Assembly: GCA_040902195.1 (NCBI GenBank) | Contig: JBBDXS010000019.1 | Location: 213,969-277,968 of the forward strand | Direction of reading: 5' to 3' | DNA from: Dehalococcoidia bacterium | GTDB lineage: Bacteria; Chloroflexota; Dehalococcoidia; DSTF01; RBG-16-68-14 | DNA length: 64,000 nucleotides | Part shown: piece after piece, positions 1,383 through 44,589 of the stretch | Layout of the letters: the number at the start of each line of letters is the position of its first letter | Position numbering within the stretch: position 1 is the first letter of the stretch | Program-made: the position numbers and the translations under genes | Notes under the pieces: generated by a model | Told to the model about the DNA's origin: nothing | Seen by the model: the letters and a program-made list of their open reading frames with translations, nothing else | Databases searched by the model: none

Positions 1383-2459
1383 CTACAGCACAGGCGCAAG
1401 GGGCTCGCGCAAGCACTCCTCCGGCGGTACATCTGGCCTGGGCGCCACGAAGACGGGGAAGCGCAGCACGCCGGCTGGCGTCCACGCGCTGAAACGGACG
1501 TGGCAGGCCAGCTCAGGCTGGCACCAGTAGAAGAAGCGCTGGACTGCGGGCGGCGCGCCAAAGGGCGCGCGCTCGGTATGGAGGGGCGTGAGCATCTCGA
1601 GAAGCTGACGAGCCTCCTTGTCGCTGCAGCCGATACTGACCTCCCCTACGAAGTGAAGCTGGCCTCGATCGTATGCTCCGAGCAGGATCGTCGAGATCAG
1701 GTCCTTCTTGCGGAGCCCGCCTCCGAACGTATAGCCGCCGATCACGAAGTCATCGCTCTGGGCGGCCCGGATTTCCTGCCAGCTAATCGAACGCTCGCCG
1801 GGCAGGTAGTGGCTGTGCTTGTCCTTCGCGACGACGCCCTCAAGGCGATAGCTCGCAGCGGCTTCGAAAAAGGCTATGCCTTCCTCACGCACGAAGTCGG
1901 CTGCCTGAATGTAGCGATTCGGCCCGATCCGCTCGTGGAGCAGGTTGCGCCGCTCGTAGAGCGGACGCTTCAGCAGCCACGAGCGGTCCAGCTCCAGAAG
2001 GTCGAAGACCTGGTAGGTCACGGTCGAGCGCGGCGGCCGGCGGACCGCATCGTTGTCGGGCTGGAGGAGGCGGCCCCGCAGCAGCTCGACGTCCGGTAGC
2101 GCTTCGGCGCCCCACGCGATGATCTCGCCGTCGATGACGGCGTGCTTCGCGGTGACGCAGCGCGCGAGCGACTGCAGCTCGGGATAGTGAGCCGTAAGAT
2201 CGCGCAGGTTGCGTCCGTGCAGGCGCACGTCGTCGCCGTCGATGACGGCGATCGCGCGCACACCGCCCCACTTCACTTCGTAGATGTGGTCGGGCGAGTC
2301 GAACGGCTCATCGATGACGACGGGGAGCATCGGACGCAGCTCGTGGGGAGCAGGCTTCGCCTGCGTGGGCGGACGGTTGCTGCGTGCGGGCGACCTTCTG
2401 GTCATAACGCGTCCATGCGAGGACACGTAGAGCGTATGTCCGTCTGGTGCTGGCGTCAA
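1383..2459 (-). CDS. ATP-dependent DNA ligase (LigD/LigC-like ligase domain, stand-alone)
   Basis: 358 aa. Motif I region YEVKWGGVRA, motif III YQVFDLLELD, motif IV LEGVVAKD, C-terminal OB/motif VI VLRFPVFVAPRPD. The TTG at 2459 overlaps the DUF72 stop (TTGA); alternative ATG starts lie at 2405 and 2330. Confidence 0.82.
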   Translation of the reverse strand: MTPAPDGHTLYVSSHGRVMTRRSPARSNRPPTQAKPAPHELRPMLPVVIDEPFDSPDHIYEVKWGGVRAIAVIDGDDVRLHGRNLRDLTAHYPELQSLARCVTAKHAVIDGEIIAWGAEALPDVELLRGRLLQPDNDAVRRPPRSTVTYQVFDLLELDRSWLLKRPLYERRNLLHERIGPNRYIQAADFVREEGIAFFEAAASYRLEGVVAKDKHSHYLPGERSISWQEIRAAQSDDFVIGGYTFGGGLRKKDLISTILLGAYDRGQLHFVGEVSIGCSDKEARQLLEMLTPLHTERAPFGAPPAVQRFFYWCQPELACHVRFSAWTPAGVLRFPVFVAPRPDVPPEECLREPLAPVL

Positions 2460-3367
2460 GCGCCCTTCACACCGAGCAGCTTCTGCAGCCTCGCCGCGTT
2501 TACCACGCCCTGGTCTTCAAGCTTCGTGTTGAACATAAGAAAGACGTCGTCGGCCTCCGCGGCGAGCTGGCCGATGCGCGGCAGCCACTCCGATAGCTCG
2601 TCGTCCGTGTAGAGCCAGTTCAGCTTTTCTTGGGTCGATGCTGTCTTGTCGTCCCATCGTTCGGCGTTGCGCCCGCGAAAGCGCACCGACGCAACGGGCG
2701 CTGTTACGGCAACGATCGGCGGAAAGCTTGTCTTGAGCTCCTGCGGCTCATCGACGCAGACGAAGCCGCACTTCAACTCGCGCAGGAGATCGAACGTCGA
2801 TGCCGCGCTCTCATCGTCGGAGACCCAGAGAGCGTTCCGGAACTCGACGATGACCGGGTCGTCCGCCAGACGCTCGCGCGCGTGTGCGATGAACTCGCGA
2901 TTCGCCTTCGACGGCACGAACCACGGCGGGAAGTCGAGCAACACCGCGCCCAGCTTGTCCTCGTCGCGGAGCGGCTGCAGCGCGCGGCGGAAGATCTGCC
3001 ACAGCTCCTCGCTGACCTCTGGGGGGATGTCCTTGTAGTAGACGCGCGCCTTCTTTTGGACGTCCGGCGGCAGCGATTCGTGGAAGCTCTTGGGGATGGA
3101 GGAGAAGCGCGTCGGGTGCTGGCTGAACAGCGCGAACACCTTGACGTTGAATCGAAAGCCCTCGGGCACCGCGCTGCCCCAACGCTCCATGTTTTTGTGC
3201 GACGGCATCGCGTAGTACGTGCTGTCGATCTCGGCCGTGCTGTACCGCTCGCCGTAGAAGGCGAGGCGTTCGGGCGTGTCCTTGAGCTCGGGCGGGTAGA
3301 AGCGCCCGCAATTGACGAGCGACTTTTCAGCCCACGATGACGTGCCGATGAAGAAGCGCGCTGCCAT
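2456..3367 (-). CDS. DUF72 (UPF0759) family protein
   Basis: True start is the internal ATG at 3367 (MAARFFIGTSSWAEK...), the typical DUF72 N-terminus. The upstream part of the 439-aa track ORF is non-coding leader. Confidence 0.82.
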   Translation of the reverse strand: MAARFFIGTSSWAEKSLVNCGRFYPPELKDTPERLAFYGERYSTAEIDSTYYAMPSHKNMERWGSAVPEGFRFNVKVFALFSQHPTRFSSIPKSFHESLPPDVQKKARVYYKDIPPEVSEELWQIFRRALQPLRDEDKLGAVLLDFPPWFVPSKANREFIAHARERLADDPVIVEFRNALWVSDDESAASTFDLLRELKCGFVCVDEPQELKTSFPPIVAVTAPVASVRFRGRNAERWDDKTASTQEKLNWLYTDDELSEWLPRIGQLAAEADDVFLMFNTKLEDQGVVNAARLQKLLGVKGA

Positions 3368-3550
3368 GGCCAGAAGGGAAGCGCGCTTTGCATGCGCTGT
3401 CAACTGTGCAGCGGCGCAGCCAGCGTTCGTTCCATAATGCGTATGTGCAACGCCGAACATACGCGAGAAAAAGAGCGGGTTCGCCTTTCGGGACCGGCGG
3501 TCGAGTGAGTGTGGCGGCTGTGCCAAGCGTCGCGACGGAACCTGGTAGGT

Positions 3551-3579
3551 TTGACAATTCTTTGCGTCAGCGCTAGCCT
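3551..3579 (+). promoter_or_regulatory. candidate sigma70-type promoter (TTGACA-N17-TAGCCT) driving the riboswitch leader and GT20 gene
   Basis: Perfect -35 hexamer TTGACA is rare in this GC-rich DNA; a weak -10 follows after a 17-nt spacer, about 15 nt upstream of the structured leader. Confidence 0.3.
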
Positions 3580-3594
3580 TATAGCAAGAAATCG

Positions 3595-3730
3595 AATATG
3601 GCCGAGTCCCGAAAGGGAACGGGGGAACCACCCGAATTTGGGGTGCATCCTTCCGGAGCGGAAGGAAGGGCAGTTCTTTCAGCCCTAACCCGACAGCTAA
3701 CCCCGTAGGCCACTGGAAGAAGAGGTGATC
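3595..3730 (+). ncRNA. ydaO/kimA-class (c-di-AMP) riboswitch-like 5' leader
   Basis: Contains GAACGGGGGAACC ... GGGGUGCAUCC ... ACCCGACAGCUAACCCCGUAGGC. These closely resemble the conserved ydaO elements (CGGGGGA-CC, GGGGUGAAUCC, CCCGACAGCUAACCUCGUAAGC, recalled from B. subtilis ydaO). A 5' UCCCGAAAGGGA hairpin is also present. The leader sits in a 558-nt intergenic region about 195 nt upstream of the GT20 start. Confidence 0.5.
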
Positions 3731-3924
3731 GTGAGCACCATCGGGTCGGCGTAGCCGCGTCGGCCCCTTTGTCATCTTGCAGATGACGTTCCGCGGCTGT
3801 TCGCTGGCGAAGGCGGCAGTTCGCTCAACAATCGAAATCTAAACGACTAATGCGGTTCCCGGCCGGGAGGCAGCTTCGAGTCTGTATGGCAGCGCTTTGG
3901 GCTCATGAGAACCAGGAGGCTTAG

Positions 3925-5478
3925 GTGTCAGGACGAACGAACGACCGCGCTTCCGAGAACGCTTCCGCGAATCAGAAGCTGAGCGGCCCGCAATCCAGCC
4001 GCAGGCTGATCTTGGTCAGCAACCGCGGCCCTGTCGAGCATCGCACGAACGAGCGCGGCGACATAGAGCAAGTCTGTGCCAGCGGCGGCGTTGCGGCTGC
4101 GCTTAGCGCGCTCGCCCCGGGCCGGCCGATCACGTGGATAGCCGCCGCCACAGGCGCGCTCGATCGCGTGCTGGCGACGCAAGGGGAGCTACTTCCTCTC
4201 GATGACGGAAAGTACGTTCGCCTGATCGCTCCGCCGCGGGAGGTCTACGATCTCTTCTACGGCACATTCAGCAATCCGGTCCTCTGGTTTGTCCAACACG
4301 CGATGTACGATCGTTTGGAGATGGACGACGTTGATGCCGTCGCTGTCGACGCGTGGCAGCGCGGTTATTTGCCGGTGAACCAGATCTTCGCTGAGACCGT
4401 GATCGATGAGCTGGAGCGAAGCGGAAGCCGCGGGCGCGTCATGTTGCACGATTATCACCTGTACGCCGCGCCGCTCTTCATCCGGAACCGCCGGCCCGAC
4501 GCTGTGCTCCAGCACTTCGTGCACATTCCCTGGCCCCAGCCCGACGCATGGCGCGTCCTACGAACGCCCATCGTCCAGTCCATTTGCGAAGGCCTCCTCG
4601 CAAACGACAGCGTGGCGTTCCAGACACAAGCCTTCGCGCGCAATTTCATCGATACGTGCCGCGCGTACCTCACGGATTGTGAGGCGACGGCGGATCGGAT
4701 CACGCACGCCGGCCGCTCGACGCGCGTCTGGGCGAATCCTGTGTCCGTTGACATCTGGGACCTGCGCCGTCAGCTCGCGTTGCCTGAGGCAGAAGCATAT
4801 CGCTCCAAGCTCGCCGCACCGCCGGAGATGCGCACGATCGTCCGCGTCGACCGGCTCGATCCGAGCAAGAACGTAGCGACAGGCTTCCGTGCCTTCGGCC
4901 GGCTGCTCGAATCGCACCCGGAGTGGGTGGGCAAGGTGCGCTTCCTGTCGTTCCTCGTGCCGTCGCGCACCGGCGTCGCGGAGTATCGCCGGTACAAGGA
5001 CGAAGTCTTCGCCGCTGCCGGGGAAGTAAACGCACGTTTTGCCACGCCGGATTGGCAGCCGGTCGCCATCTATTACGAACACAACCGCCTCCAAGCGCTC
5101 GTCGCCATGAGTCTCTACGACGTGCTGCTTGTCAATCCTCTCATCGATGGCATGAATCTGGTCTCCAAGGAAGGCCCGGCCGTGAACGCCAGGAACGGCG
5201 CCCTCGTGCTGTCCGAGACAACCGGTGCGTTCGAGGAGCTGCGTGCGGGAGCGATCCCGGTGCTGCCGCACGATATCGCCGGCACCGCCGCCGCGCTCGA
5301 TCGCGCACTCAGGCTTCCGGCGGAGGAGCGGCGCGAGTGCACGCGACTGCTGCGTGAGGCTATCGTGCGCCACGATCTGCGTCGCTGGTTCCGTCTGCTG
5401 CTCGAGGACCTCGACGCCATGTCGGAAGATGAGCCGCAAGCGAGCGGCCCCGCTCGCGAGGCGCTGCGCACGGGCTAG
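3925..5478 (+). CDS. otsA: GT20 family alpha,alpha-trehalose-phosphate synthase (OtsA-like; glucosylglycerol-phosphate synthase not excluded)
   Basis: 517 aa. LILVSNRGP, MLHDYHLY and a C-terminal UDP-binding region typical of GT20. GTG start preceded by AGGAGG with a 6-nt spacer. Confidence 0.85.
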   Translation: MSGRTNDRASENASANQKLSGPQSSRRLILVSNRGPVEHRTNERGDIEQVCASGGVAAALSALAPGRPITWIAAATGALDRVLATQGELLPLDDGKYVRLIAPPREVYDLFYGTFSNPVLWFVQHAMYDRLEMDDVDAVAVDAWQRGYLPVNQIFAETVIDELERSGSRGRVMLHDYHLYAAPLFIRNRRPDAVLQHFVHIPWPQPDAWRVLRTPIVQSICEGLLANDSVAFQTQAFARNFIDTCRAYLTDCEATADRITHAGRSTRVWANPVSVDIWDLRRQLALPEAEAYRSKLAAPPEMRTIVRVDRLDPSKNVATGFRAFGRLLESHPEWVGKVRFLSFLVPSRTGVAEYRRYKDEVFAAAGEVNARFATPDWQPVAIYYEHNRLQALVAMSLYDVLLVNPLIDGMNLVSKEGPAVNARNGALVLSETTGAFEELRAGAIPVLPHDIAGTAAALDRALRLPAEERRECTRLLREAIVRHDLRRWFRLLLEDLDAMSEDEPQASGPAREALRTG

Positions 5479-32270: not shown

Positions 32271-32347
32271 TGGTCGGGGCGACTGGACTCGAACCAGCGA
32301 CCTCCTGACCCCCAGTCAGGTGCCCTACCAAGCTGGGCCACGCCCCG
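32271..32347 (-). tRNA. tRNA-Pro(GGG): tRNA-Pro (anticodon GGG), CCA encoded
   Basis: Reverse complement folds as CGGGGCG/CGCCCCG acceptor, GCCC/GGGC D-stem, CCUGA/UCAGG anticodon stem with loop CUGGGGG (U33, G37), GCUGG-UUCGAGU-CCAGU T-arm, discriminator A, CCA. Confidence 0.88.
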
Positions 32348-34321: not shown

Positions 34322-34379
34322 ACGAAGAGGCTGGCTGCGAGTCGCGAGCGAGTTCCACGCCCGGTCGTTTGGGCTTCGC

Positions 34380-37300
34380 TTAGGTATTTACGGAAGCTAA
34401 GGAGGCCTCTTGCGCCAGTTTCGTCATCACACGTTCGAGCGCGTCCTGCCAACCCTCGCCCAGCGCGCCGAGGTCGAGCCGGGCCTGCGACGCTCCTGCC
34501 TTCAGGCCGGGTATACGTGCGCCAGCGAACACCTCGCGCGGCACGAGGCCGTCCTCGATGCGAACGACGAGCTCGTCGCCTTCCCGCTGTACGGCTGAGG
34601 CGTTCGCCTTCTTCGCCAGCGCCCGGATGCGGACGACGAACAGGAGGTTGCGCGCCGGCGCCGGGGCCGGCCCGAAGCGGTCGTCCAGCTCCTGCGCGAC
34701 CGACTCCGCTTCTTCCGGCGACTCGACTTCGGCCATGCGCTGGTAGAGCGCCAGGCGCACGTTCAGGTCGCCGACATACGCCGACGGGAGGTGCGCCGAG
34801 AACGGCAGGTCGATCGTCAGCGAGGGCTGCTGCGTCTTCGGCACGGGCGGGGTGCGCCCCTCGCGTAGCGCCTTCAGCCGCTCGACGGCGTCGGAGAGCA
34901 AACGCACGTACAGGTCGAAGCCGACAGCGCCGATGTGCCCGCTCTGCTCCGCCCCGAGCAGGTTGCCGGCGCCCCGGATTTCCAGGTCGCGCAGCGCGAT
35001 CTGGAAGCCAGACCCCAGTTCCGTCGCCTGGAAGATCGCCTGGAGCCGCTTCTGCGCCTGCTCCGAAAGCGATCGGTACTTGTCGAACAGCAGGTACGCG
35101 TATGCGCGCGCCGCGCCGCGCCCGACGCGCCCGCGTAGCTGATAGAGCTGCGCCAGCCCGAGCCGGTCCGCGCGGTCGATGATGATCGTGTTCACGTTCG
35201 GGATGTCCAGCCCGGACTCGATGATCGTCGTGCATACCAGGACGTCGACCCGTCCGTCTACGAAATCGACCATCACGCGTTCGAGCTGCTCCTCCGGCTG
35301 CTGTCCGTGCCCGATGCTGATCGCCGCTTCCGGCACGAGGTCGCTCAGCTTGCGCGCTACGGCCTCGATGTCCTGCACGCGGTTATGCACGAAGTAGACC
35401 TGCCCGCCGCGCTCCAGCTCGCGCACGATCGCGTCGCGCACCAGCTTGTCGTCCGACTCCGAGACGTAGGTCTTGATCGGCAGGCGCTGCTCGGGTGGCG
35501 TCTCCATCGTCGACATGTCCCGGATACCCGTCAGCGACATGTGCAGCGTTCGCGGGATCGGCGTCGCCGAGAGCGTCAGCACGTCGACCTCGCGGCGCAT
35601 CTGCTTCAGCCGCTCCTTGTGCGCCACGCCGAAGCGCTGCTCCTCATCGATGATCGCGAGGCCCAGGTTTTTGATCGCGACGTCCTTCTGCAGCAGACGG
35701 TGCGTGCCGATCACGATGTCGACCGAGCCGTCCTTCAGCCCCTCGATCGTCTCGCGCTGCTCCTTGTCCGACCGGAAGCGCGACAGCATGTCGACCCGCG
35801 CCGGAAATCCCGACAGCCGCTCGCGGAACGTGTTGTAGTGTTGCTGCGCCAGCACCGTCGTCGGCACAAGCATCGCCACCTGGCGGCCGTCCGTGATCGC
35901 CTTGAACGCCGCGCGCACAGCGACCTCCGTCTTGCCGTAGCCGACATCGCCGCAAACGACGCGGTCCATCGGGCGGTCGTGCTCCATATCGGCCTTCACG
36001 GCGCACACCGCCGCGAGCTGGTCCGGCGTCTCCACATAGGGGAACGACGCCTCCAGCTCCTGCTGCCACGGCGAGTCCTGCGGAAACGCGTGCCCTTCGA
36101 TGAGCTGGCGTGACGCGTACAGCTCGAGCAGCTCCTTCGCGAGGTCGGCGACGGCGCGGCGTACGCGTGCCTTGGCGCGTGTCCACTCCTGGCTGCCCAG
36201 CCGCGTCAGGTGCGGCGTCGCGTCGCCCGGCCCGACGTAGCGGCTCACACGGTCGACCTGCTCCGCCGGCACGAAGAGCTTGTCTCCCTGCGCGTACCGC
36301 AGGTCGAGGTACTCGTGCTCGATTTCGTCGACGCGCCGCCGGATCAGTCCCGCGAACCGCGCGATGCCGTGCTCCGTGTGCACGACGTAGTCGCCCGGCG
36401 AGAGGTCTGCGAGGAACGCCTCGCGCCCTGCCCCCGCCCGTCGCGGCAGCCGGCGGCGTTGCTTCACGAAGCCGAAGACCTCGGCGTCCGTCAACAGCGT
36501 CAGCGGCGGCTGCGATGTCGTCAGACGCCAGCCCTGCGGCAGCGAGCCATGTACCAGGACGATCGCGCCCGCCTCCGGCATCGATGGTGTCTCTGCCAGC
36601 GACGCCGGGACGCCTTGCTCTGCGAACACCTCCGCCAGCCGCTCCGCTTGCTGCGACACGATGACGATCGCGCGGCCGCGGGCCGTCGCTTCTGCGCCGT
36701 CCGAGACCAGGTTGCGCAGCCGCCCGCCATACGCATCGGGCGGCGCGAACGGCAGCCGCGCGCCCGTCCCCGAAGGCGTCTCGACCGCGACGCCGTCCTC
36801 ACGCGTGTCTACGGCCCAGCGCGAGAAGTGGACCCTCCGCGCGACGCCGTCAAGCGCGGCGCGCACGTCGCTCTCGGAAAAATGCGGCGAAGGCAGCCCT
36901 TCCGGCAGCTCGCCGCGCGATTGTAGGTCGATGCGCGCCTCCGCGCTCTGCGTGTCGTGCTCCTCGAGCGCCTTCGCCACGTCCGCCGGCTCATCGATGA
37001 GGAGCAGCGCGCCGGCAGGTACGTGGTCGAGCAAAGACCCCGACGCGAGCAGCGGTACGTAGAAGCCTTCCTCTGCGAACGCCGCGTCCTCCTCCAGCTT
37101 TACGAGCTCTTCCTCGAACCGCTCGCGTCCCTCCGGCGACAGCGTCGACAGGTCGATGCGTTGCGCCAGCTCTCGCGCGGCGCTCGCCATGTCGAGCACC
37201 TCGCGCGCGGGCCCAAGCGTCACTGCGTCGACCAGGCCGCCCGATCGCTGCGTCGCGACATCGAACCGGCGCATGCTCTCGATGCGGTCGCCGGCGAACT

Positions 37301-37883
37301 CGATGCGCAGCGGCGCGTCACCTGTCGACGGCAACACGTCGATGATCCCGCCGCGCCGCGCCGCCTCGCCCGGCTCCGCGACGACAGGCGCGGTTCGATA
37401 GCCCAGCCGCAGCAGGGACATCAGCAGCGCGTCGGGCGTCATCTGCGCGCCGACCGCGAGATCGACCATCGCATCTTCGTCGCGCGCCAGGGTGCGTTGC
37501 GCCAGCGCCGCCGCCGGCGCGACCATGATGCAGGGCTGCCTGCTGTGCAGCGTCTCGAGCGCGCGCAGCCTGTCCATGACGGCATCGATATCGGTCGCGA
37601 GCCGCTCGTAGGGGAGGGCATCGCGCTCCGGGAACGGAAGGACGGGTAGGGTGTCGCCCAGCCAGAGCTGCAACTCCTCGATCAGCGCCAGCGCGCGCGG
37701 GGGTTTCGGCACGACAACGATCACCGGCGCTCGCCCGACATCTGCCAGCCCGGCAATCAGCGCGCCCTTCGCCGCGTCCGTAATGCCCAGCACGACGGGC
37801 TCGCGCGCACCGAGGCGGCCGCTCAGCGCGCGCAGTCCGCAGGCATCCTCGATGGCCGCTAGTAGATTTCGTAAGTCACTCAT
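34380..37883 (-). CDS. mfd: transcription-repair coupling factor Mfd
   Basis: 1167 aa; UvrB-homology N-terminus, RecG-like SF2 helicase motifs (GDVGYGKTEVAVRAAF, DEEQRFG), TRG motif and C-terminal domain. Confidence 0.95.
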   Translation of the reverse strand: MSDLRNLLAAIEDACGLRALSGRLGAREPVVLGITDAAKGALIAGLADVGRAPVIVVVPKPPRALALIEELQLWLGDTLPVLPFPERDALPYERLATDIDAVMDRLRALETLHSRQPCIMVAPAAALAQRTLARDEDAMVDLAVGAQMTPDALLMSLLRLGYRTAPVVAEPGEAARRGGIIDVLPSTGDAPLRIEFAGDRIESMRRFDVATQRSGGLVDAVTLGPAREVLDMASAARELAQRIDLSTLSPEGRERFEEELVKLEEDAAFAEEGFYVPLLASGSLLDHVPAGALLLIDEPADVAKALEEHDTQSAEARIDLQSRGELPEGLPSPHFSESDVRAALDGVARRVHFSRWAVDTREDGVAVETPSGTGARLPFAPPDAYGGRLRNLVSDGAEATARGRAIVIVSQQAERLAEVFAEQGVPASLAETPSMPEAGAIVLVHGSLPQGWRLTTSQPPLTLLTDAEVFGFVKQRRRLPRRAGAGREAFLADLSPGDYVVHTEHGIARFAGLIRRRVDEIEHEYLDLRYAQGDKLFVPAEQVDRVSRYVGPGDATPHLTRLGSQEWTRAKARVRRAVADLAKELLELYASRQLIEGHAFPQDSPWQQELEASFPYVETPDQLAAVCAVKADMEHDRPMDRVVCGDVGYGKTEVAVRAAFKAITDGRQVAMLVPTTVLAQQHYNTFRERLSGFPARVDMLSRFRSDKEQRETIEGLKDGSVDIVIGTHRLLQKDVAIKNLGLAIIDEEQRFGVAHKERLKQMRREVDVLTLSATPIPRTLHMSLTGIRDMSTMETPPEQRLPIKTYVSESDDKLVRDAIVRELERGGQVYFVHNRVQDIEAVARKLSDLVPEAAISIGHGQQPEEQLERVMVDFVDGRVDVLVCTTIIESGLDIPNVNTIIIDRADRLGLAQLYQLRGRVGRGAARAYAYLLFDKYRSLSEQAQKRLQAIFQATELGSGFQIALRDLEIRGAGNLLGAEQSGHIGAVGFDLYVRLLSDAVERLKALREGRTPPVPKTQQPSLTIDLPFSAHLPSAYVGDLNVRLALYQRMAEVESPEEAESVAQELDDRFGPAPAPARNLLFVVRIRALAKKANASAVQREGDELVVRIEDGLVPREVFAGARIPGLKAGASQARLDLGALGEGWQDALERVMTKLAQEASLASVNT

Positions 37884-37956
37884 GTTCGGTACACGCGAAA
37901 ACGGGCTGGCCGCTCAGCGACCACCCCTCACACATCTATTGTACCGCAGCGCCTAT

Positions 37957-38613
37957 CTACGTGTTGTAGCGCCCCATCGCGACCGCGATGCCGTCCGTCA
38001 CCGCACACTCGATCGCCTCCATTGCGCGCTCGACGGCGGCGTCTAGCAGCGCGCGTTCGTCCGGCGGTGGGTCGGAAAGCACGTAGTTCGCCACGTGCTC
38101 GGGGTCCCACGACGGCTCGCCGTTCACGACCGGCCTGCCGATACCGATGCGCAGCCGCGCGAACTCGTCCGTCCCCGTCGCGTCGATGATCGACTTCAAC
38201 CCCTTGTAGCCGCCCGAGCCGCCGCGCGCGCGCAGCCGTACCTTCCCCACCGGCAGATCGAGCTCGTCATACACCACCAGCAGCTCCCGCGCGTCGTCCA
38301 GCCCGAGGCGCTTGATCAGGTTCCAGATGACATCGCCGCTCTTGTTGACGAACGTGCGTGGCTTCGCCAGCGCCACCTCGTGCCCGCCGATGCGTCCCTT
38401 GCCTAGCGCTGCCTGTCCACTGACCGACAGCTCGATACCGTGCCGTTTCGCGAGGCGGTTGATCGTCCAGAAGCCGACGTTGTGCCGGTTGCCCGCGTAC
38501 TCGCTGCTGGGGTTTCCTAGCCCGGCGATTAGCCGGATGCGATACTCGCGCGGCTCCTCGTCTGCGAACTTCTCCTTGCGCCCGAAGAAGCGTCGCAGCA
38601 ACCCGCCACTCAC
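37957..38613 (-). CDS. pth: peptidyl-tRNA hydrolase
   Basis: IRLIAGLGNPSSEYAGNRHNVGF, the classic Pth N-terminal motif. Start placed at the GTG at 38613 overlapping the upstream stop (GTGA); no in-frame ATG exists upstream of the conserved core. Confidence 0.8.
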   Translation of the reverse strand: MSGGLLRRFFGRKEKFADEEPREYRIRLIAGLGNPSSEYAGNRHNVGFWTINRLAKRHGIELSVSGQAALGKGRIGGHEVALAKPRTFVNKSGDVIWNLIKRLGLDDARELLVVYDELDLPVGKVRLRARGGSGGYKGLKSIIDATGTDEFARLRIGIGRPVVNGEPSWDPEHVANYVLSDPPPDERALLDAAVERAMEAIECAVTDGIAVAMGRYNT

Positions 38614-40121
38614 GTCGATTCGTTGGCGAGACGTACCTCGCCCTGTGAGGTTGCCCGCTCCGTTAGCAGCGTGCGCATCGTTTCCACCGCGGCATCGACG
38701 TCGTCCGGGCGCACGACCGGATGCGCGCGCGCGAACGCATCGATCAGGTGTACCGCGTCGGTTGTGATCGATACCGGCTGCTCGAGTAGGTCCTGCACGA
38801 ACGCGATCAGCTCGTCGTCCAGCACGCGTACCAGCCCCGCCTGGTCGGACGCTTGCACGATCTGGAGGAACTGCTCGATGCGCTCGCCACCGCGCGCCAG
38901 GATGCGCCGGATCGTCTCGGTCGCCAGCCGCGCCTGCTGCCGTTCGAGCGCGCGCCGTAGCCGCCGCACGACGTCCTGCGCCTGCTCTCGCGGCGTCTCG
39001 TCGTCCAGCGCGACGTTGCAGTCGGCACAGCGAGGCGTGTGGTGGAGGAACTCGCGGAGGTCCGCGCGCGTGCACGGCGCGATCTCGCGGCCAAGCGACG
39101 CGTACTCTCGCAGCGCCGCAACGCCGGCCGGCCTGCCCAGGCCACGGAGCACATTCAGCCGCTCCAGCGCGACAGCAAACGGCTTCGCGTCGTCGATCGC
39201 GCGCTGCAGCTGCGCCGTCGCCCGCACGTACGAAGCGTGGTGCTCCACGTAGGCGCGCGCGTATGCCGCCCGGAACGACTCGAACGCCGCGCGCATCCCG
39301 CCCAGGCTATGCGGCTCCGATAACAGCGCCACGAACGACAGCCGCTCGCGCGTCGAGGCGTGGTCGACGATCAGCTCGTGCTGCTGCGTCCCCGGCTGCG
39401 CGCCGGCAAGATACGCGCGCAGGCTGGCAAGCTCTCGCGCCCCTTCGGCGTGCTCGATGACGCAGCGGGCCAGCGCGGCGTCTTCTGCCAGCGAGCCGGG
39501 CGTTTCGACAATGTTCGGTTCCGCGCCGTCCGCGATCGCACGTAGCCGCTCGATCGCGGACGCGGCGTACGCCGGTGTGCTGTCGATTTCCTTAAGCAGC
39601 CGTCGCAACCGCACACGCAGCGCGTCGGGCCTCGCCAGCTTCGATGACTCGTTGGGGAACGAGAGCACCGCGTCGAGCGCGCGCCAGGAGCGGTCCGCTG
39701 TACGCCCATCGATCAGCAGCGCGCGCGCCAGCGATTCGAGATCGGCCTTGCCGTTGCTGGCGAACACTTCGCGAGCCGTAAGGGTCAACGGATGGGCCGT
39801 CAGCACCACACCGACGGCGTAGGAGTCGAGCGCTCGGCGTGGCAGCCGTATCGGCGGCGGGTCGCCGTTCGTTGCGTACGCGACGCGGCTCTCGCCGATC
39901 GCCGGGCCCAAACGCGTCGGCTCGGCCGGGGCGCAGAGCGCTAGTCCGGGCGTGCGAATCCGCGTGCCGTTGTTCAGCGGCCGTTCAGAGAGGACGATGG
40001 TGAAGGCGGCGTCCGGGCTGGTCGCAACGTCGTCCCGCCACGCGGGCACGATGACCACCTCGCCCCGGCGCGAAACGCCTTCGTCATCCTGGACGGCGAA
40101 GGGCAGGCGTCGCTCGGCCAC
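38610..40121 (-). CDS. hypothetical protein (503 aa, mostly alpha-helical, Ala/Arg/Leu-rich, with a C-x(n)-HH-x3-C-x2-C cluster)
   Basis: Long ORF with genome-typical GC3 usage, translationally coupled to pth. No Walker, nuclease or other motif I recognise. IAPCTRADLREFLHHTPRCADCN is a possible metal site. Confidence 0.6.
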   Translation of the reverse strand: MAERRLPFAVQDDEGVSRRGEVVIVPAWRDDVATSPDAAFTIVLSERPLNNGTRIRTPGLALCAPAEPTRLGPAIGESRVAYATNGDPPPIRLPRRALDSYAVGVVLTAHPLTLTAREVFASNGKADLESLARALLIDGRTADRSWRALDAVLSFPNESSKLARPDALRVRLRRLLKEIDSTPAYAASAIERLRAIADGAEPNIVETPGSLAEDAALARCVIEHAEGARELASLRAYLAGAQPGTQQHELIVDHASTRERLSFVALLSEPHSLGGMRAAFESFRAAYARAYVEHHASYVRATAQLQRAIDDAKPFAVALERLNVLRGLGRPAGVAALREYASLGREIAPCTRADLREFLHHTPRCADCNVALDDETPREQAQDVVRRLRRALERQQARLATETIRRILARGGERIEQFLQIVQASDQAGLVRVLDDELIAFVQDLLEQPVSITTDAVHLIDAFARAHPVVRPDDVDAAVETMRTLLTERATSQGEVRLANEST

Positions 40122-40156
40122 GCAGCGATGATAGCACAGGTGTCGAGGTGGTAAGC

Positions 40157-41344
40157 CTAGCTTGCCGCCACGCCTGCGCTGGCCTGTGCGCGCTCGACGA
40201 TGTCCGGCAGTACGTCCAGCAGCCTATCGATGTCGTCCGCCGATGTCGCCGGGCTCACGGTGAACCGCAGCGTGCCGGCCGCGCGGTTGAGCGGCACGTC
40301 CATCGCCAGCAGCACGTGTGAAGGCTCCAGCGTCTCTTCGTTGCACGCCGAGCCCGCGCTCGCGGCGAAGCCCGCCTCATCGAGCAGGCGCAGGAGGATG
40401 CGCGCATCGGCTCCCGCAAAGCTCACGTTAACGTTGTTCGGCACGCGGCGCTCGCGGTCGCCGTTCAGCGTCGCGCCGGGTACGCGCGCCGTGATGCCGT
40501 CGAGCAGCCGGTCGCGGGTCGCTCGACACGTTGCGCTGTACGCCTCTCGATTCGCCTGCGCCAGCTCGAACGCGCGCGCCGTCCCCACGATGCCCGCGAC
40601 GTTCTCGGTGCCCGCGCGGCGCTGTCGCTCCTGCCCGCCGCCCGACTGCTGCGCCAGAAACGGCGTGCCCCGTCGTAAATAGAGGATGCCGGCGCCCTTC
40701 GGCCCGCCGAATTTGTGCGACGAGAGGCTGAGCGCGTCGACCCCCAGCGCGTCTACATTCAGATCGAACGCGTTCGCTCCCTGCACGGCGTCCGTGTGCA
40801 ACGGTACCTCACGCCCGATCGATTTCGCCCGCTCGCGCACGGCCCGCGCGATGTCGGCTACTGGCTGTACGATGCCGGTCTCGTTGTTCGCCAGCATCAC
40901 GCTGACCAGCACTGTCCGCTCGTGTACTGCCCGCGCCGCCTCCTCCGGATCGACGAGGCCATCCCGGCTCACGCGCAGGTACGTCACTTCGAAGCCGAAC
41001 TTCTCCAGATACTGGCAGCTATGCAGCACCGCGTGGTGCTCGATCGACGACGTGACGATGTGGTTGCCGACGCGCGCAAGCTGTTGTGCGAACGCTACGC
41101 CCTTGATCGCCGCGTTGATCGATTCGGTGCCGCCGCTCGTAAAGATGATCTCCTGCGGCCGGGCGCCCAGTAGTCGTGCGACGGTCTCGCGTGCCGCATC
41201 GACGGCGTCACGGGCCGTTCGCGCCGGCGCATACGTCGCGGACGGGTTGCCGAAGCTTTCGTCCAGATAGGGCGTCATCGCGTCGCGCACCTCCGCCCGG
41301 AGAGGCGTCGTCGCCGCGTAGTCGAGATAGATGGAGTCGTTCAC
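40157..41344 (-). CDS. cysteine desulfurase (class V aminotransferase, IscS/NifS-like)
   Basis: 395 aa; IYLDYAATTP, SSHKFGGPKG (PLP lysine), C-terminal catalytic Cys region (SAGSACN). Confidence 0.9.
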   Translation of the reverse strand: MNDSIYLDYAATTPLRAEVRDAMTPYLDESFGNPSATYAPARTARDAVDAARETVARLLGARPQEIIFTSGGTESINAAIKGVAFAQQLARVGNHIVTSSIEHHAVLHSCQYLEKFGFEVTYLRVSRDGLVDPEEAARAVHERTVLVSVMLANNETGIVQPVADIARAVRERAKSIGREVPLHTDAVQGANAFDLNVDALGVDALSLSSHKFGGPKGAGILYLRRGTPFLAQQSGGGQERQRRAGTENVAGIVGTARAFELAQANREAYSATCRATRDRLLDGITARVPGATLNGDRERRVPNNVNVSFAGADARILLRLLDEAGFAASAGSACNEETLEPSHVLLAMDVPLNRAAGTLRFTVSPATSADDIDRLLDVLPDIVERAQASAGVAAS

Positions 41345-41417
41345 AGCAGTTGCGCTGTATCGAGTACAGCGCCCTGATCGTACCCCCAGCAGGTCTGTCG
41401 CGTCAAACGTCTTCGCG

Positions 41418-42125
41418 CTAGCAGAAGCCTTCCGGATCGAATCGGCAGTAGAGCATGTCGATGAACTCCTGCAGCCTGTCCAGATCGAGCTCGGTCGCGG
41501 GCATCAGGTCGCGTCGGCCCCAGACGGTGATCGCGACGGTCTCCATAGCCATGTTGGGGTAGGGGGCCAGCACCAGCGTAACGTCGTCGTTCAGGTTTTC
41601 CGTCGCAAACGTCTCCAGCTGGTCGATGACGTCTTCGTCCGCCGTGTTGTACCAGACGATCACCCCGGCGTGCTCCATATTGTGCACAAGCGTCTCGGCC
41701 GGCCAGGGCTCGCGGTAGATGCCCCACGGTGCCGGGCCGCACAAGGGCGGTGATGATGAGGGGTCCTGGCCGCACGCCGCGCTTCCCCAGTGCGGCCCGC
41801 CCGCCGGCGGCAGTCCCTGCGGCGAGTAGTCCATCGCGTAAGTAACGTGCGCTGAGGTGCCGGGACGTGTGCCGTACGCTCCGCCGTAGATTGCGGCCAG
41901 GTCGACGTATTCCCCGGGCAACGATGCGTCGTCATCCGCTTCCGCCGTCTGTTCGGGCGAGAGGCGGTCCACTGTCGTTGGCTGTGCGGTCGGCGTCGTT
42001 TCGGTGCTTTCGCCGCCACCACCTCCGAGTGCAGTCACGACCACAGTGGCGGCGAGCGCCACAGCCAGCACGACGATGGCGACGAGCATCGCCCCAATCA
42101 GGCGTCTAGTCGAAGACGATGACAC
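41418..42125 (-). CDS. DUF3105 domain membrane-anchored protein
   Basis: N-terminal signal-anchor; VHNMEHAGVIVWY core typical of DUF3105; Cys-rich C-terminus. Alternative start at 42089 would remove the 20-nt overlap with the ADH gene. Confidence 0.7.
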   Translation of the reverse strand: MSSSSTRRLIGAMLVAIVVLAVALAATVVVTALGGGGGESTETTPTAQPTTVDRLSPEQTAEADDDASLPGEYVDLAAIYGGAYGTRPGTSAHVTYAMDYSPQGLPPAGGPHWGSAACGQDPSSSPPLCGPAPWGIYREPWPAETLVHNMEHAGVIVWYNTADEDVIDQLETFATENLNDDVTLVLAPYPNMAMETVAITVWGRRDLMPATELDLDRLQEFIDMLYCRFDPEGFC

Positions 42126-43179
42126 TCCGTGCCACTTCGCCGTTCTTCATCGCTGCGAAGGCGTCGTTGATGCCTTCGAGCGGGTAAGTGCGCGACACGA
42201 GCTCGTCCAGCTTCAGCTTGCCGGCCATGTACAGGTCCAGGATGCGCGGCATGTCGTAGCGCGGCCTAGTCGAGCCGTAGACGCAGCCTCGCAACACCTT
42301 CTCAGCCAGGAACGCCGGGGCGCTGATCGCCGCCTCGGAGCCGACCGGCGCCATCCCCACCACGATAGCCTCGCCGCCGCGGCGGACCATGTTGAACGCC
42401 TGCGTGATCGCCGCCGGCAGGCCGATCACCTCGAACGCGTAGTCCGCGCCGGCGCCGCCCGTCAGTTCCTGCACCTTCGCGACCGGGTCTTCTTTCGACG
42501 CGTCGACGAAATGCGTCGCGCCGAACTCGCGCGCCATCTCGAGTTTGTTCGTGTTCACATCGATTGCGATGATCTTCTCCGCGCCCGCGAGCGCGCAGCC
42601 CTGGATCACGTTCAGCCCGACGCCGCCCGCGCCGATCACGGCGCAGCTTGCGCCCGGTTCCACCTTCGCGGTGTTGATCGCCGCGCCGACGCCTGTCATT
42701 ACGCTACAACCGACGAGCGCGGCCACGTTCATCGGCACGTCCTCGCGGATCTTCACGACGCCGCCCTGCGGCACGACCATGTACTCAGCAAACGACGACA
42801 TCGACAAGAACGGCGCGACGGCCCGGTCGCCGATCTTCAGCGTTGGGGTGCTCGCGCGTCCTTCGCCACAGAGGTTCGGCCGGCCCGTTGTGCAGTAGCG
42901 GCACACGCCGCAGAACGGCGTGAACAGCATCACGACGTGGTCGCCCGGCTTTACGTACGTCACGCCGTCGCCGACCTTCTCGACGATGCCCGAGGCCTCG
43001 TGCCCGAGGATCGCCGGCGTCGGGATGGGCCACGACCCCTCGATGAAGTGGAGGTCACTGTGACATACGCCGCTCGCGCTTGTCTTGACCAGGACAAGTC
43101 CCGGCCCCGGGTTCTTGTCGATGCCGACGTCCTCGATAACAAGCGGCTTCTTCGCTTCGCGTAGGACTGCTGCCTTCAT
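42106..43179 (-). CDS. zinc-dependent alcohol dehydrogenase (MDR family)
   Basis: 357 aa from the ATG at 43179 (MKAAVLREAKK). GVCHSDLH catalytic zinc, CGVCRYCTTGRPNLC structural zinc, GAGGVG Rossmann. Confidence 0.85.
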   Translation of the reverse strand: MKAAVLREAKKPLVIEDVGIDKNPGPGLVLVKTSASGVCHSDLHFIEGSWPIPTPAILGHEASGIVEKVGDGVTYVKPGDHVVMLFTPFCGVCRYCTTGRPNLCGEGRASTPTLKIGDRAVAPFLSMSSFAEYMVVPQGGVVKIREDVPMNVAALVGCSVMTGVGAAINTAKVEPGASCAVIGAGGVGLNVIQGCALAGAEKIIAIDVNTNKLEMAREFGATHFVDASKEDPVAKVQELTGGAGADYAFEVIGLPAAITQAFNMVRRGGEAIVVGMAPVGSEAAISAPAFLAEKVLRGCVYGSTRPRYDMPRILDLYMAGKLKLDELVSRTYPLEGINDAFAAMKNGEVARSVIVFD

Positions 43180-43325
43180 GGGGCTCCTTTCGTGTCGGTA
43201 CGATGGCGCCCGCTGCGGGGCGCGGACTGCATTGTACACATTGCGCCTGATCTATAGGGGCGCACGCCTGTGCGCCCCCGAGGTCAGTCGCCGCATGCCG
43301 CACCGTTCATGGTGCGGGGGTGTTA

Positions 43326-44537
43326 TCAATAGGCAGCACACGTGACCGACAGCACCGGCGGTAGCGTGCCGGGCAGGCGCTGCCAGCTTTCTCCGCGGTC
43401 GGCGCTGGCGTAGACCTCGCCGTTGCTCGTGCCGACGTAGACGCCCTCCGGATCGAGACCGTCCGTGTCGAGTCCTTCTCGATACACGCTCTGGTAGTCG
43501 TGCGGGCCCGGCAGGCCGTTCGTCAGCGGCTCCCACGTCTTCGCGCCGTCTTGCGTTCGGTACACCGTGAACTGGCCGAGGGATACGCGGAAGTTGTCCT
43601 GGCCGTAGTCCAGCGGGACCACGTAGACCGCGTCCGGCTGGCGGCGCGTGACGGCGATGGGGAAGCCGTGGAATGAGGGGAGGCCCTCCGTGACGTCCTG
43701 CCAGTTAGCGCCGCTGTCGTCGGAGCGGAAGACGCCCCAGTGCGCCTGACCCCAGATGCGCTCGGGGTTCTTCGTGTCCACCCGCATCTTGTGCATCTCG
43801 TTGAGCCCGGCCGGGTCCTTGTCCCACGGCCCGCGGTCGATTGACGGGTCCATGCCCTCGACCATGAACTGTTGGACCAGCTTCTTCGCCTCTGGATTCG
43901 TCGCGACCGCGTTGTGCGAGAAGAGATCCCAGCTTGCTCCGCCGTCCTTCGACTCGTACGAACCCCCTGCGCCGACGCATAGGAAGACGTGCTTCGCATC
44001 GCGCGGGTCGACCTGGACCGAATGGATGCAGGAGTCACCACCGCCCGTGCCCGACCAGTACTTGCGATAGGGGTGCCGGTTCATCGACTCTACCGGTGTC
44101 CACGACTGGCCCCAGTCCTCGCTGCGGAAGAGGCCGGCGGGCTGCGTTCCGGCGTACACGACACCCGGCTCGCTCTCGTGCCCCGGCGCGACGTTCCAGA
44201 TGTTGCCTATCGCGCCCGGCGGGGTGTTCTGCCACTCGCCGGGCGCGCCGGGCGGTGGCACGGAAGGGCTCTTCATGTCGGGCGGGAACTTGAGCCCCTC
44301 GCTGCGATAGTCCCACGTCTTGCCCAGGTCCGTGCTCTTTGCAACCGAGGGGCCCCACGCCCAGTGGTTTGCGGCCGCATAGAACCTCGGTGGATCGCTC
44401 CGCAGGTCGGCCGCCATGTGGAAGAACGACCAGCCGGGCAGGATCGGCTCGGAGACCTCCCACTTCTGTCGCTTCCCGTCCGAGGAATAGATAAACGCGC
44501 CCTTCTTTGTACCCACCAGCAATCGTGTTTCGCTCAT
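43326..44537 (-). CDS. BNR/Asp-box repeat beta-propeller protein (sialidase/glycosidase-like)
   Basis: Six S/T-x-D-x-G-x-x-W Asp-boxes (STDLGKTW, SEDWGQSW, SKDGGASW, SDDSGANW, TQDGAKTW, ADRGESW). Confidence 0.75.
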   Translation of the reverse strand: MSETRLLVGTKKGAFIYSSDGKRQKWEVSEPILPGWSFFHMAADLRSDPPRFYAAANHWAWGPSVAKSTDLGKTWDYRSEGLKFPPDMKSPSVPPPGAPGEWQNTPPGAIGNIWNVAPGHESEPGVVYAGTQPAGLFRSEDWGQSWTPVESMNRHPYRKYWSGTGGGDSCIHSVQVDPRDAKHVFLCVGAGGSYESKDGGASWDLFSHNAVATNPEAKKLVQQFMVEGMDPSIDRGPWDKDPAGLNEMHKMRVDTKNPERIWGQAHWGVFRSDDSGANWQDVTEGLPSFHGFPIAVTRRQPDAVYVVPLDYGQDNFRVSLGQFTVYRTQDGAKTWEPLTNGLPGPHDYQSVYREGLDTDGLDPEGVYVGTSNGEVYASADRGESWQRLPGTLPPVLSVTCAAY

Positions 44538-44589
44538 GCGGCCTTCCTTTCGCTAGGACGACGAATTTCCCGCCTTGAGTTCGACAGCC

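What the first reader, a model, noticed from the sequence alone, without database searches (positions are those of the whole stretch)
38610..40121. Unrecognisable 503-aa protein translationally coupled to pth-mfd
Immediately upstream of pth, where many bacteria carry rplY (L25/Ctc), there is a 503-aa Ala/Arg/Leu-rich, apparently all-helical protein with no motif I can place and a possible metal site (C-x9-HH-x3-C-x2-C). Its stop overlaps the pth GTG start (GTGA), arguing for co-translation with the ribosome-rescue (Pth) and transcription-repair (Mfd) genes.
Basis: partly seen in the sequence, partly recalled or inferred. Interest (0 to 1): 0.6.

Follow-up and report, generated by a model that had tools for sequence, protein, structure and literature searches.

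The report
ATPase-less BrxC relative coupled to pth
The "unrecognisable" 503-residue protein is a cut-down relative of BrxC, the large ATPase of the BREX anti-phage system, that has lost its motor half and, across Chloroflexota, is almost always encoded directly in front of, and usually overlapping, the essential peptidyl-tRNA hydrolase gene.

Summary
The ORF (38610-40121, minus strand, 503 aa) is real. Its TGA stop overlaps the pth GTG start (GTGA). It is under purifying selection (dN/dS 0.28) and folds confidently (pLDDT 85).

It is not unrecognisable. Curated libraries miss it, but a family profile aligns residues 17-493 to residues 596-1302 of ~1300-aa DUF6079/BrxC proteins (HHalign probability 100%, E 1.8e-55). 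Those proteins lie in genuine BREX loci with PglZ, a methyltransferase and BrxL.

The window protein keeps three BrxC parts:
- the alpha+beta domain
- the coiled-coil arm, with an apex Cys triad (C350, C365, C368)
- the C-terminal helical bundle

It lacks the AAA+ ATPase, and this short form also lacks the second winged-helix region.

In 55 of 58 ATPase-less loci with enough downstream DNA, pth follows within 200 nt on the same strand, usually overlapping or within 9 nt. This holds in three different upstream contexts (NifS-like, LigA, SecB/DUF2007). None of 6 BrxC-type loci has pth.

The homology and the gene pairing are shown. The function is inferred: most likely a non-enzymatic coiled-coil scaffold or adaptor made together with Pth. 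No paper in the searched library mentions BrxC together with peptidyl-tRNA hydrolase.

The parts
38610..40121 (-). Gene X: 503-aa ATPase-less BrxC-like protein (GTG start at 40121, TGA stop at 38610-38612)
   Evidence: ORF. 69 full-length homologues and 781 profile hits. HHalign to BrxC-like proteins at probability 100%, E 1.8e-55. dN/dS 0.28.
39747..40121 (-). Residues 1-125: beta-rich N-terminal domain, homologous to the BrxC region ~596-750 (by position, the BrxC alpha+beta domain)
   Evidence: AF2 strands 4-11, 17-25, 41-45, 60-64 and 105-108. hmmsearch domain hits to 1300-aa proteins at ~585-745, i-E 5e-10 and 7e-11. HHalign. Domain naming follows bioRxiv 10.1101/2025.10.09.681413.
39315..39746 (-). 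Residues 126-269: helical region. Relative to BrxC and to the ~700-aa X forms, a ~160-200-residue winged-helix-containing segment is missing near its start.
   Evidence: The HHalign gap spans BrxC-like ~750-910. Long forms keep the 'GL..L..LYLLAF....P..EL.L.P.H' segment.
39153..39314 (-). Residues 270-323: long ascending coiled-coil helix with invariant Y291 and H295
   Evidence: AF2 helix 270-323, pLDDT >90. Invariant columns.
38991..39152 (-). Residues 324-377: apex subdomain with the conserved Cys triad. Cys codons are C350 at 39072-39074, C365 at 39027-39029 and C368 at 39018-39020. Also carries the RLN..L..LG.P.G motif.
   Evidence: Invariant C350/C365/C368. Motif C-x12-16-C-x2-C in 203 of 264 members. 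Also invariant in BrxC-like proteins.
38895..38990 (-). Residues 378-409: descending coiled-coil helix (pI 11.9) carrying the most conserved motif, RLA(S/T)EA(V/I)RRILARGG
   Evidence: AF2 helix 378-409. Conservation. pI.
38613..38894 (-). Residues 410-503: acidic C-terminal helical bundle (pI 4.4) with the motif ERIEQFLQIVQASD...VLDDELL.FL
   Evidence: AF2 helices 415-493. Conservation shared with BrxC-like proteins. pI.
38610..38613 (-). GTGA: the X stop codon (TGA) overlaps the pth start codon (GTG)
   Evidence: Sequence. The same -4 overlap occurs in ~22 related loci, and others lie within +1 to +9 nt.
37957..38613 (-). pth, peptidyl-tRNA hydrolase (218 aa). Residues 1-27 (38533-38613) form a basic N-terminal extension (pI 10.2) that is conserved in the short-X lineage.
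   Evidence: Pfam PF01195, E 4.4e-58, domain from residue 28. Extension motif conserved. pI.
34380..37883 (-). mfd (transcription-repair coupling factor, 1167 aa), 73 nt downstream of pth. Linked to X-pth only in the short-X lineage.
   Evidence: ORF. Synteny.
40157..41344 (-). Class-V aminotransferase / cysteine-desulfurase-like gene, 35 nt upstream of X. Conserved upstream neighbour in most, but not all, loci of the short-X lineage.
   Evidence: Pfam PF00266, E 2.6e-73. Synteny.
41377..41406 (-). Sigma-70-like promoter match (TTGACG-18-TACGAT) upstream of the desulfurase-like gene. No promoter-like or minus-strand terminator-like site lies between it and the end of pth.
   Evidence: Consensus scan only. 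Weak evidence.

Best explanation
Gene X encodes a descendant of the BREX protein BrxC that has lost the N-terminal AAA+ ATPase and first winged helix. This 503-aa form has also lost the second winged-helix segment.

What remains:
- the BrxC alpha+beta domain
- the long antiparallel coiled-coil arm, tipped by a small subdomain with three invariant cysteines (probably a structural metal knuckle or hook)
- the conserved C-terminal helical bundle

The gene is inherited vertically in Chloroflexota as the upstream partner of the essential peptidyl-tRNA hydrolase gene. The two genes usually overlap, so both proteins are made from one mRNA. Pth translation probably starts by termination-reinitiation.

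Most likely mode of action (inferred): X has no catalytic residues of its own. It forms an elongated, probably self-associating scaffold or adaptor that acts with Pth, for example by positioning or regulating Pth on its nucleic-acid substrates (peptidyl-tRNA, or obstructed ribosomal subunits).

Shown: homology, domain losses, gene pairing, purifying selection. Inferred: metal binding, oligomerisation, physical or functional partnership with Pth.
For: Homology to BrxC:
- A profile of 34 family members hits ~1300-aa proteins at E 1e-50 to 1e-67 over their last ~340 residues.
- The N-terminal domain hits the same proteins at ~585-745.
- HHalign gives probability 100%, E 1.8e-55, aligning X 17-493 to BrxC-like 596-1302.
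- BLASTP of X against the L021 protein gives 35% identity, E 2e-35.

The long relatives are BrxC:
- They pass Pfam DUF6079 or BrxC_BrxD and PADLOC BrxC.
- They lie in loci with PglZ and a PglXI-type methyltransferase, or with a methyltransferase, PglZ and BrxL.
- DUF6079 is canonical BrxC.
- The pth-linked long X forms P0172 and P0124 hit the C-terminal part of the Pfam DUF6079 and PADLOC BrxC models directly.

Architecture: the predicted coiled-coil hairpin with an apex subdomain matches the published description of the BrxC tail.

Pairing with pth:
- 55 of 58 ATPase-less loci have pth within 200 nt downstream. None of 6 BrxC-type loci does.
- Upstream neighbours differ between lineages: NifS-like, LigA, or SecB/DUF2007.
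- The stop and start overlap, or are at most 9 nt apart, in most loci.

Real gene: dN/dS 0.28, pLDDT 85.4.

Not a defence island: no BrxC ATPase or PglZ homologue is in the 64-kb window.
Against: - No direct evidence that X and Pth interact. No X-Pth fusion exists among the 221 family sequences held.
- The pairing could reflect conserved operon structure within one phylum. All named sources are Chloroflexota MAGs, so the loci are not phylogenetically independent.
- In one lineage (L025), two unrelated genes separate X from pth.
- X is slightly acidic overall (pI 6.07) and this short form has lost the winged helix. This weakens the case for nucleic-acid binding.
- No fourth metal ligand is conserved near the Cys triad. 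The model coordinates could not be inspected.
- A rough NJ tree does not separate BrxC-type from long X-type C-terminal modules, so the direction and number of truncation events are unresolved.
Confidence: 0.4

Rival explanations
1. X is a DNA-associated scaffold for genome maintenance. It keeps the predicted DNA-binding alpha+beta domain and coiled-coil arm of BrxC and works with the repair enzymes encoded beside it (LigA upstream in one lineage, Mfd downstream in another). On this view pth is only a passenger in the operon.
For: - LigA-X junctions overlap or abut in L027, L030 and L031.
- mfd follows pth in the short-X lineage.
- The BrxC region C-terminal to the ATPase is proposed to bind DNA, and BrxC binds DNA experimentally.
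Against: - Neither LigA nor Mfd is a constant neighbour, whereas pth is.
- P0084 has neither LigA nor NifS upstream.
- The window form has lost the winged-helix segment and is mildly acidic.
- From my own knowledge, pth-mfd adjacency is common in bacteria that lack X.
Confidence: 0.2
2. X still acts in phage defence. It would be a BrxC-derived sensing arm that modulates the essential Pth on infection, shutting down translation through build-up of peptidyl-tRNA. Alternatively it acts in trans on a resident BREX system.
For: - Its closest full-length relatives are BrxC proteins in BREX loci.
- From my own knowledge, and the reference list seen: reduced Pth activity in E. coli (the rap allele) blocks lambda growth through bar minigenes. 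A link between Pth and phage exclusion therefore has precedent.
Against: - X occupies a fixed syntenic housekeeping position and diverges along with its neighbours. This is unlike defence islands.
- No other BREX gene is in the window.
- No PADLOC hit for X.
- dN/dS 0.28 shows no sign of arms-race evolution, though this is a single pair.
Confidence: 0.1
3. The Cys triad binds an Fe-S cluster or a redox-active metal delivered by the cysteine desulfurase encoded just upstream. On this view X is a redox or metal sensor.
For: - A class-V aminotransferase (NifS-like) lies 35 nt upstream in the window and in most short-X loci.
- Three invariant Cys, plus the X-specific conserved C63 and C220.
Against: - The desulfurase is absent upstream in the LigA and SecB/DUF2007 contexts.
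- The same Cys triad is invariant in BrxC-like proteins that have no desulfurase neighbour.
- The spacing C-x14-C-x2-C at the tip of a coiled coil looks like a structural knuckle.
Confidence: 0.05
4. One reading: an orphan protein of unrecognisable type occupying the rplY (L25/Ctc) slot, perhaps a ribosome-associated substitute for L25.
For: - The position directly upstream of pth is where rplY often lies (my own knowledge).
- No hit in curated domain libraries.
Against: - Clear homology to BrxC.
- No similarity to L25 or to sigma factors.
- The size and predicted fold are unlike L25.
Confidence: 0.03
5. X is a decaying remnant of a BrxC gene, or a spurious ORF in GC-rich DNA.
For: It is a truncated version of a larger protein. 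High-GC DNA produces many long ORFs.
Against: - Hundreds of homologues with conserved ends and invariant residues.
- dN/dS 0.28.
- A confident fold.
- Conserved translational coupling to an essential gene.
Confidence: 0.02

Closest known systems
BrxC / PglY (Pfam DUF6079, PF19557), the AAA+ ATPase of BREX anti-phage systems
   Same: - X residues 17-493 are homologous to BrxC-like residues ~596-1302. [quoted passage not shown]
- The longer pth-linked forms also keep the second winged-helix segment.
   Different: - No ORC/Cdc6-type AAA+ ATPase and no first winged helix. This form also lacks the second winged helix.
- No PglZ, PglX, BrxA, BrxB or BrxL neighbours.
- It sits in a fixed housekeeping position, coupled to pth.
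- It is not detected by the Pfam or PADLOC BrxC models.
Rad50 / SMC-type coiled-coil arms with a zinc hook or hinge at the apex
   Same: An antiparallel coiled-coil hairpin with a small Cys-containing (CxxC) subdomain at the tip. The authors of the BREX survey draw the same analogy for BrxC.
   Different: - No ABC ATPase head.
- Three Cys per chain (C-x14-C-x2-C) rather than a CxxC hook shared between two chains.
- No sequence or fold match to Rad50 or SMC in the PDB.
- This is an analogy only.
MutS2/RqcU-type cases, in which a paralogue from a DNA-handling family acts in ribosome rescue (my own knowledge)
   Same: A conceptual precedent: a module from a DNA-directed system is reused next to translation quality-control functions, and Pth is the nascent-chain release factor in bacterial RQC (my own knowledge).
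   Different: No homology. Nothing here shows that X binds ribosomes.
P0070-type 768-aa proteins: a P-loop NTPase N-terminus plus the same C-terminal module
   Same: The C-terminal ~170 residues align to X 280-448 (BLASTP E 3e-15).
   Different: It has a Walker A motif (GAGKTH) and weak AAA_22/AAA_16 matches. It is not next to pth.

Membership tests
BrxC / DUF6079 (BREX ATPase) | N-terminal ORC/Cdc6-type AAA+ ATPase with Walker A/B motifs and an arginine finger | tested here: not met
   X begins at the equivalent of BrxC-like residue ~596. It has no P-loop and no AAA match. tblastn with the BrxC N-terminal 570 aa finds nothing in the window.
BrxC / DUF6079 (BREX ATPase) | Alpha+beta domain following the first winged helix | tested here: met
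   X 15-143 matches BrxC-like ~585-745 (i-E 5e-10 and 7e-11), and the region is included in the HHalign alignment. Assigning it to the 'alpha+beta domain' is by position, from the published description.
BrxC / DUF6079 (BREX ATPase) | Winged-helix modules flanking the alpha+beta domain | tested here: not met
   BrxC-like ~750-910 has no counterpart in X (the HHalign gap). The ~700-aa pth-linked forms keep this segment.
BrxC / DUF6079 (BREX ATPase) | C-terminal extended coiled coil with a small apex subdomain | tested here: met
   AF2 helices 270-323 and 378-409 flank the apex at 324-377. X 199-493 aligns to BrxC-like 991-1302. The Cys triad is shared.
BrxC / DUF6079 (BREX ATPase) | Encoded with PglZ and a PglX methyltransferase (BREX locus) | tested here: not met
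   The neighbours are a desulfurase-like gene, pth, mfd, DUF5656, DUF3105 and an ADH. No PglZ homologue is in the window. The 1300-aa relatives do have PglZ, a methyltransferase and BrxL.
BrxC / DUF6079 (BREX ATPase) | Score above the Pfam PF19557 gathering threshold or a PADLOC BrxC model hit | tested here: not met
   No hit for X. The relatives P0172 (25.2 bits against a cut-off of 23) and P0124 (PADLOC E 4e-6) do hit the C-terminal part of these models.
Ribosomal protein L25/Ctc | Ribosomal_L25p beta-barrel domain | tested here: not met
   No Pfam or NCBIfam match, even at E up to 10.
Rad50/SMC zinc-hook or hinge proteins | ABC ATPase head split by the coiled coil, with a CxxC hook that binds Zn between two chains | tested here: inconclusive
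   No ATPase head and no sequence or fold match. CxxC at a coiled-coil apex is present. Metal binding and dimerisation cannot be tested with these tools.
New family: pth-linked ATPase-less BrxC-like proteins of Chloroflexota | BrxC-type C-terminal module with a Cys triad, no ATPase, and a gene directly upstream of pth | tested here: met
   The window protein meets all three criteria. 55 of 58 testable loci share the arrangement.

The most novel reading that the evidence does not exclude
X and Pth form a previously unknown two-protein module. A sensor or scaffold arm taken from the BREX defence ATPase controls where or when the essential peptidyl-tRNA hydrolase acts. It could recruit Pth to obstructed ribosomal subunits as a lineage-specific ribosome-quality-control adaptor. 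Alternatively it could switch Pth off on phage or DNA-damage signals, arresting translation.
Probability: 0.15. Interest if true: 0.8.

Novelty: new variant of a known kind. Interest (0 to 1): 0.6.

Why it matters
- **Annotation.** The result gives a large set of 'hypothetical proteins' in Chloroflexota MAGs an evolutionary identity. There are 781 clusters at 50% identity, none with a Pfam domain.
- **Access to the BrxC tail.** This is a natural stand-alone version of the half of BrxC that is disordered in the cryo-EM structure and whose role in BREX is unknown. A 500-aa soluble homologue could make the arm, its Cys-triad tip and its conserved C-terminal bundle open to structural and biochemical study.
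- **Exaptation of a defence module.** The fixed, usually overlapping pairing with an essential translation-recycling enzyme would be an unusual case of a defence-system module reused in a housekeeping operon. As far as I know, bacterial Pth has no dedicated partner protein, so a real X-Pth partnership would be new biology for a well-studied essential enzyme.
- **Limits.** Everything beyond homology and gene order is inference, and all sources are uncultured organisms.

Tried and rejected
- **Direct domain and sequence searches with X.** Pfam, NCBIfam, PADLOC and PDB sequence searches gave nothing significant, and neither did the family profile against the PDB.
- **Widening the census.** The second and third word-indexed homologue searches added almost nothing: only P0174, named 'Chloroflexi bacterium'. 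The cluster look-up gave no organism names.
- **Metagenome scan.** The first alignment (A2) was too diverse to yield search patterns. A narrower one worked.
- **Phylogeny.** An NJ tree of the C-terminal module did not resolve BrxC-type from long X-type sequences (after a timeout), so I make no claim about a single truncation event.
- **Ideas rejected.** L25/Ctc or sigma-factor relationship (no similarity). 'HH' as metal ligands (not conserved). Spurious ORF. An RNA element in the intergenic gaps (no Rfam hit in the region).
Full report
**1.

The minus-strand ORF 38610..40121 encodes 503 aa from a GTG start. Its last sense codon and stop read ACG TGA. The G before that TGA plus the TG of the stop form the GTG of the next ORF, so GTGA at 38610-38613 is shared.

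The next ORF is peptidyl-tRNA hydrolase (PF01195, E 4.4e-58), with the catalytic domain starting at residue 28. It is followed after 73 nt by mfd. A class-V aminotransferase (cysteine-desulfurase-like) gene ends 35 nt upstream of X.

The composition is Ala 16.1%, Arg 11.9%, Leu 11.3%. Window GC is 0.63-0.70, which explains the many spurious antisense ORFs.

X is a real gene:
- 69 full-length homologues at 40-93% identity share its N-terminus and many invariant residues.
- dN/dS against a 93%-identical relative is 0.28, compared with 0.14 for pth.
- AlphaFold2 gives mean pLDDT 85.4.

- The first ~110 residues are beta-rich, not helical.
- Of the proposed metal site only the three cysteines (C350, C365, C368) are conserved. 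The two histidines occur only in this protein and its closest relative.

**2. What the protein is**

Pfam, NCBIfam, PADLOC and PDB sequence searches give nothing for X itself. A profile of 34 family members, searched against 1.8 billion cluster representatives, found 781 proteins. They fall into three groups:
- full-length X-like proteins of 500-570 aa
- 650-730-aa proteins with the same N-terminal motif (Y.GEV...W....FRIV.L) and C-terminal module, plus a ~200-residue insert
- ~1300-aa proteins whose last ~340 residues match at E 1e-50 to 1e-67

The ~1300-aa proteins pass Pfam DUF6079 or BrxC_BrxD and PADLOC BrxC. They are encoded in BREX loci:
- L021 carries a PglXI-type methyltransferase fragment and PglZ.
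- L069 carries 251-aa and 163-aa genes, the BrxC, an 800-aa N6_N4 methyltransferase, PglZ and BrxL.

A recent survey states that DUF6079 is the canonical BrxC profile.

The N-terminal domain of X also matches these proteins, at ~585-745. A profile-profile alignment joins everything: X 17-493 aligns to BrxC-like 596-1302 with probability 100% and E 1.8e-55. BrxC residues 1-595 and ~750-910 have no counterpart in X. Pairwise BLASTP of X against the L021 BrxC-like protein gives 35% identity over 281 residues, E 2e-35.

[quoted passage not shown] By that order, X is the alpha+beta domain plus the coiled-coil arm, apex and C-terminal bundle. It lacks the ATPase, and in this short form also the second winged helix.

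The AF2 secondary structure fits this: a 54-residue helix (270-323), an apex at 324-377 containing the Cys triad, and a return helix (378-409). The triad is invariant in the BrxC-like proteins too.

Foldseek found no PDB or viral match. That is expected, because only residues 1-551 of BrxC have been resolved experimentally.

**3. The conserved partner is pth**

In all 20 Dehalococcoidia/Chloroflexota loci from species-representative genomes, X is followed by pth. This holds even where X identity falls to 28-33% while Pth stays at 55-59%.

Forms from other lineages show LigA-X-pth, with overlapping or abutting junctions. This applies to the 717-, 674- and 439-aa forms. A 567-aa form shows SecB/DUF2007-X-pth.

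Across all loci gathered, including 38 from metagenomes:
- 58 ATPase-less loci have at least 400 nt downstream of X.
- 55 of those have a Pth match starting within 200 nt on the same strand.
- The exceptions are one lineage with two genes in between (L025/L026) and one small fragment (L067).
- None of the six BrxC-type loci has pth, and five of them have PglZ.

The pth start codon overlaps the X stop (offset -4) in the window and ~22 other loci. In most of the rest it lies within +1 to +9 nt.

In the short-X lineage the residues encoded from that overlapping start form a conserved basic amphipathic extension, for example VSGGLLRRFF, MSEGLLGQLRRIF, MSGGIIGRLRRLV. This shows that the upstream start is used. 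In the long-X lineages Pth starts directly at MKLIVGLGNP.

A consensus scan finds one sigma-70-like site upstream of the desulfurase-like gene. It finds no promoter-like or minus-strand terminator-like site from there to the end of pth. This agrees with one transcript but is weak evidence. No Rfam element lies in the region.

Some loci in this count are duplicates of one contig, and every source that carries a name is a Chloroflexota MAG. The count therefore measures conservation within one phylum, not independent events.

**4. How it most likely works**

Shown:
- X has no ATPase and no match to any enzyme family.
- Its most conserved parts are the return helix and C-terminal bundle (RLASEAVRRILARGGERIEQFLQIVQASD...VLDDELL.FL), which it shares with BrxC.
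- It is made from the same message as an essential enzyme, in an arrangement typical of proteins needed together.

Inferred:
- The Cys triad at the coiled-coil tip binds a structural metal. As proposed for BrxC by analogy with zinc hooks, it stabilises or links arms.
- X is therefore an elongated, self-associating scaffold.
- Its function is tied to Pth.

A speculative point: the acidic C-terminal bundle of X (pI 4.4) and the basic Pth extension (pI 10.2) could interact.

I put the combined statement (BrxC-derived scaffold acting with Pth) at 0.4. The homology part alone is near certain.

The rivals are:
- a DNA-repair scaffold associated with LigA/Mfd, with pth as a passenger (0.2)
- a retained defence role that modulates Pth (0.1)
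- an Fe-S or redox sensor fed by the neighbouring desulfurase (0.05)
- the L25-slot orphan idea (0.03)
- a decaying remnant or spurious ORF (0.02)

Against the repair idea, only pth is a constant neighbour. Against the defence idea are the fixed syntenic position, the absence of other BREX genes in the window and the lack of any PADLOC hit.

**5. Comparison with what is known**

X works like the tail of BrxC but is not a BrxC. Of the features tested:
- Not met: ATPase, flanking winged helices, BREX neighbourhood, model thresholds.
- Met: alpha+beta domain, coiled-coil arm with apex.

It is best filed as a new family derived from BrxC.

A rough NJ tree of the shared module does not separate BrxC-type from long X-type sequences. 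I make no claim about how many times, or in which direction, the ATPase was lost.

A related 768-aa architecture, with a P-loop plus the same C-terminal module, exists outside the pth context.

No paper in the searched library contains both 'BrxC' and 'peptidyl-tRNA hydrolase'. The BREX survey does not mention Chloroflexota, peptidyl-tRNA or ATPase-less BrxC forms. A review of release and rescue factors mentions Pth but nothing like X.

**6. Verdict**

The finding is real and more interesting than an orphan ORF, but for a different reason than proposed. The protein is recognisable as half of a defence ATPase, and it is fixed in front of pth across a phylum.

- Novelty: new variant of a known kind.
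- Interest: 0.6. The homology and gene pairing are solid and apparently unreported. The function remains inferential, and all sources are uncultured organisms.

Noticed in passing
window 38533-38613 (-), and pth genes in L001-L017, L043-L055, L062: In the short-X lineage Pth carries a 25-38-residue basic amphipathic N-terminal extension. Examples are (M/V)S.GL(L/F).RLR.L... and MPSRIFRSFLAGRRR... It is absent from Pth in the LigA-X-pth lineages, which start MKLIVGLGNP. Its role is unknown.
   Followed up: partly
window 38220-38250 (-), Pth residues ~125-135: The Pth motif that reads GGHGGHNG in E. coli (from memory) reads GGSGGYKG here, and G(Q/H/Y)KG in many related loci. The Asn reported to contact the substrate CCA end is therefore Lys in this clade. 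The residue numbering and role come from memory and were not checked.
   Followed up: no
window 3590-3726 (+): A c-di-AMP riboswitch (RF00379, 103.5 bits, E 1.6e-23) lies upstream of the + strand ORF 3925..5478. It overlaps the upstream end of the listed minus-strand ORF 2456..3775, which is therefore probably over-extended.
   Followed up: no
window 32271-32347 (-) and 46920-46994 (+): tRNA-Pro(GGG) and tRNA-Gly(GCC) genes flank the conserved syntenic block.
   Followed up: no
window 33413-46867 (-), and L001-L019: A ~13-kb gene order is conserved across these Chloroflexota MAGs: ATP-grasp_5, CoA-ligase (ADP-forming acyl-CoA synthetase-like), BNR/Sortilin-like, Zn-ADH, DUF3105, desulfurase-like, X, pth, mfd, DUF5656. 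DUF3105 and the BNR gene are duplicated in some loci. DUF5656 (a predicted membrane protein) follows mfd consistently.
   Followed up: partly
P0070 (768 aa; JGI 3300041966 contig, no DNA held): This protein has a short P-loop NTPase N-terminus (GAGKTH) fused to the same coiled-coil and Cys C-terminal module. It is encoded near ParA-like, DUF4838 and mraZ/rsmH genes rather than near pth or BREX genes. It is a third architecture for this module.
   Followed up: partly
L021 7907-9142 (+): In the Anaerolineae BREX-like locus, an OLD/AbiL-type AAA_21 ATPase (PADLOC HEC-01A, E 1e-58) lies directly after the BrxC-like gene. It is probably an embedded accessory defence gene.
   Followed up: no
L057, L058 (X genes of 384-399 aa): Some pth-linked family members seem to lack the N-terminal beta-rich domain altogether and keep only the coiled-coil and C-terminal module. 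That module would then be the minimal conserved unit.
   Followed up: no
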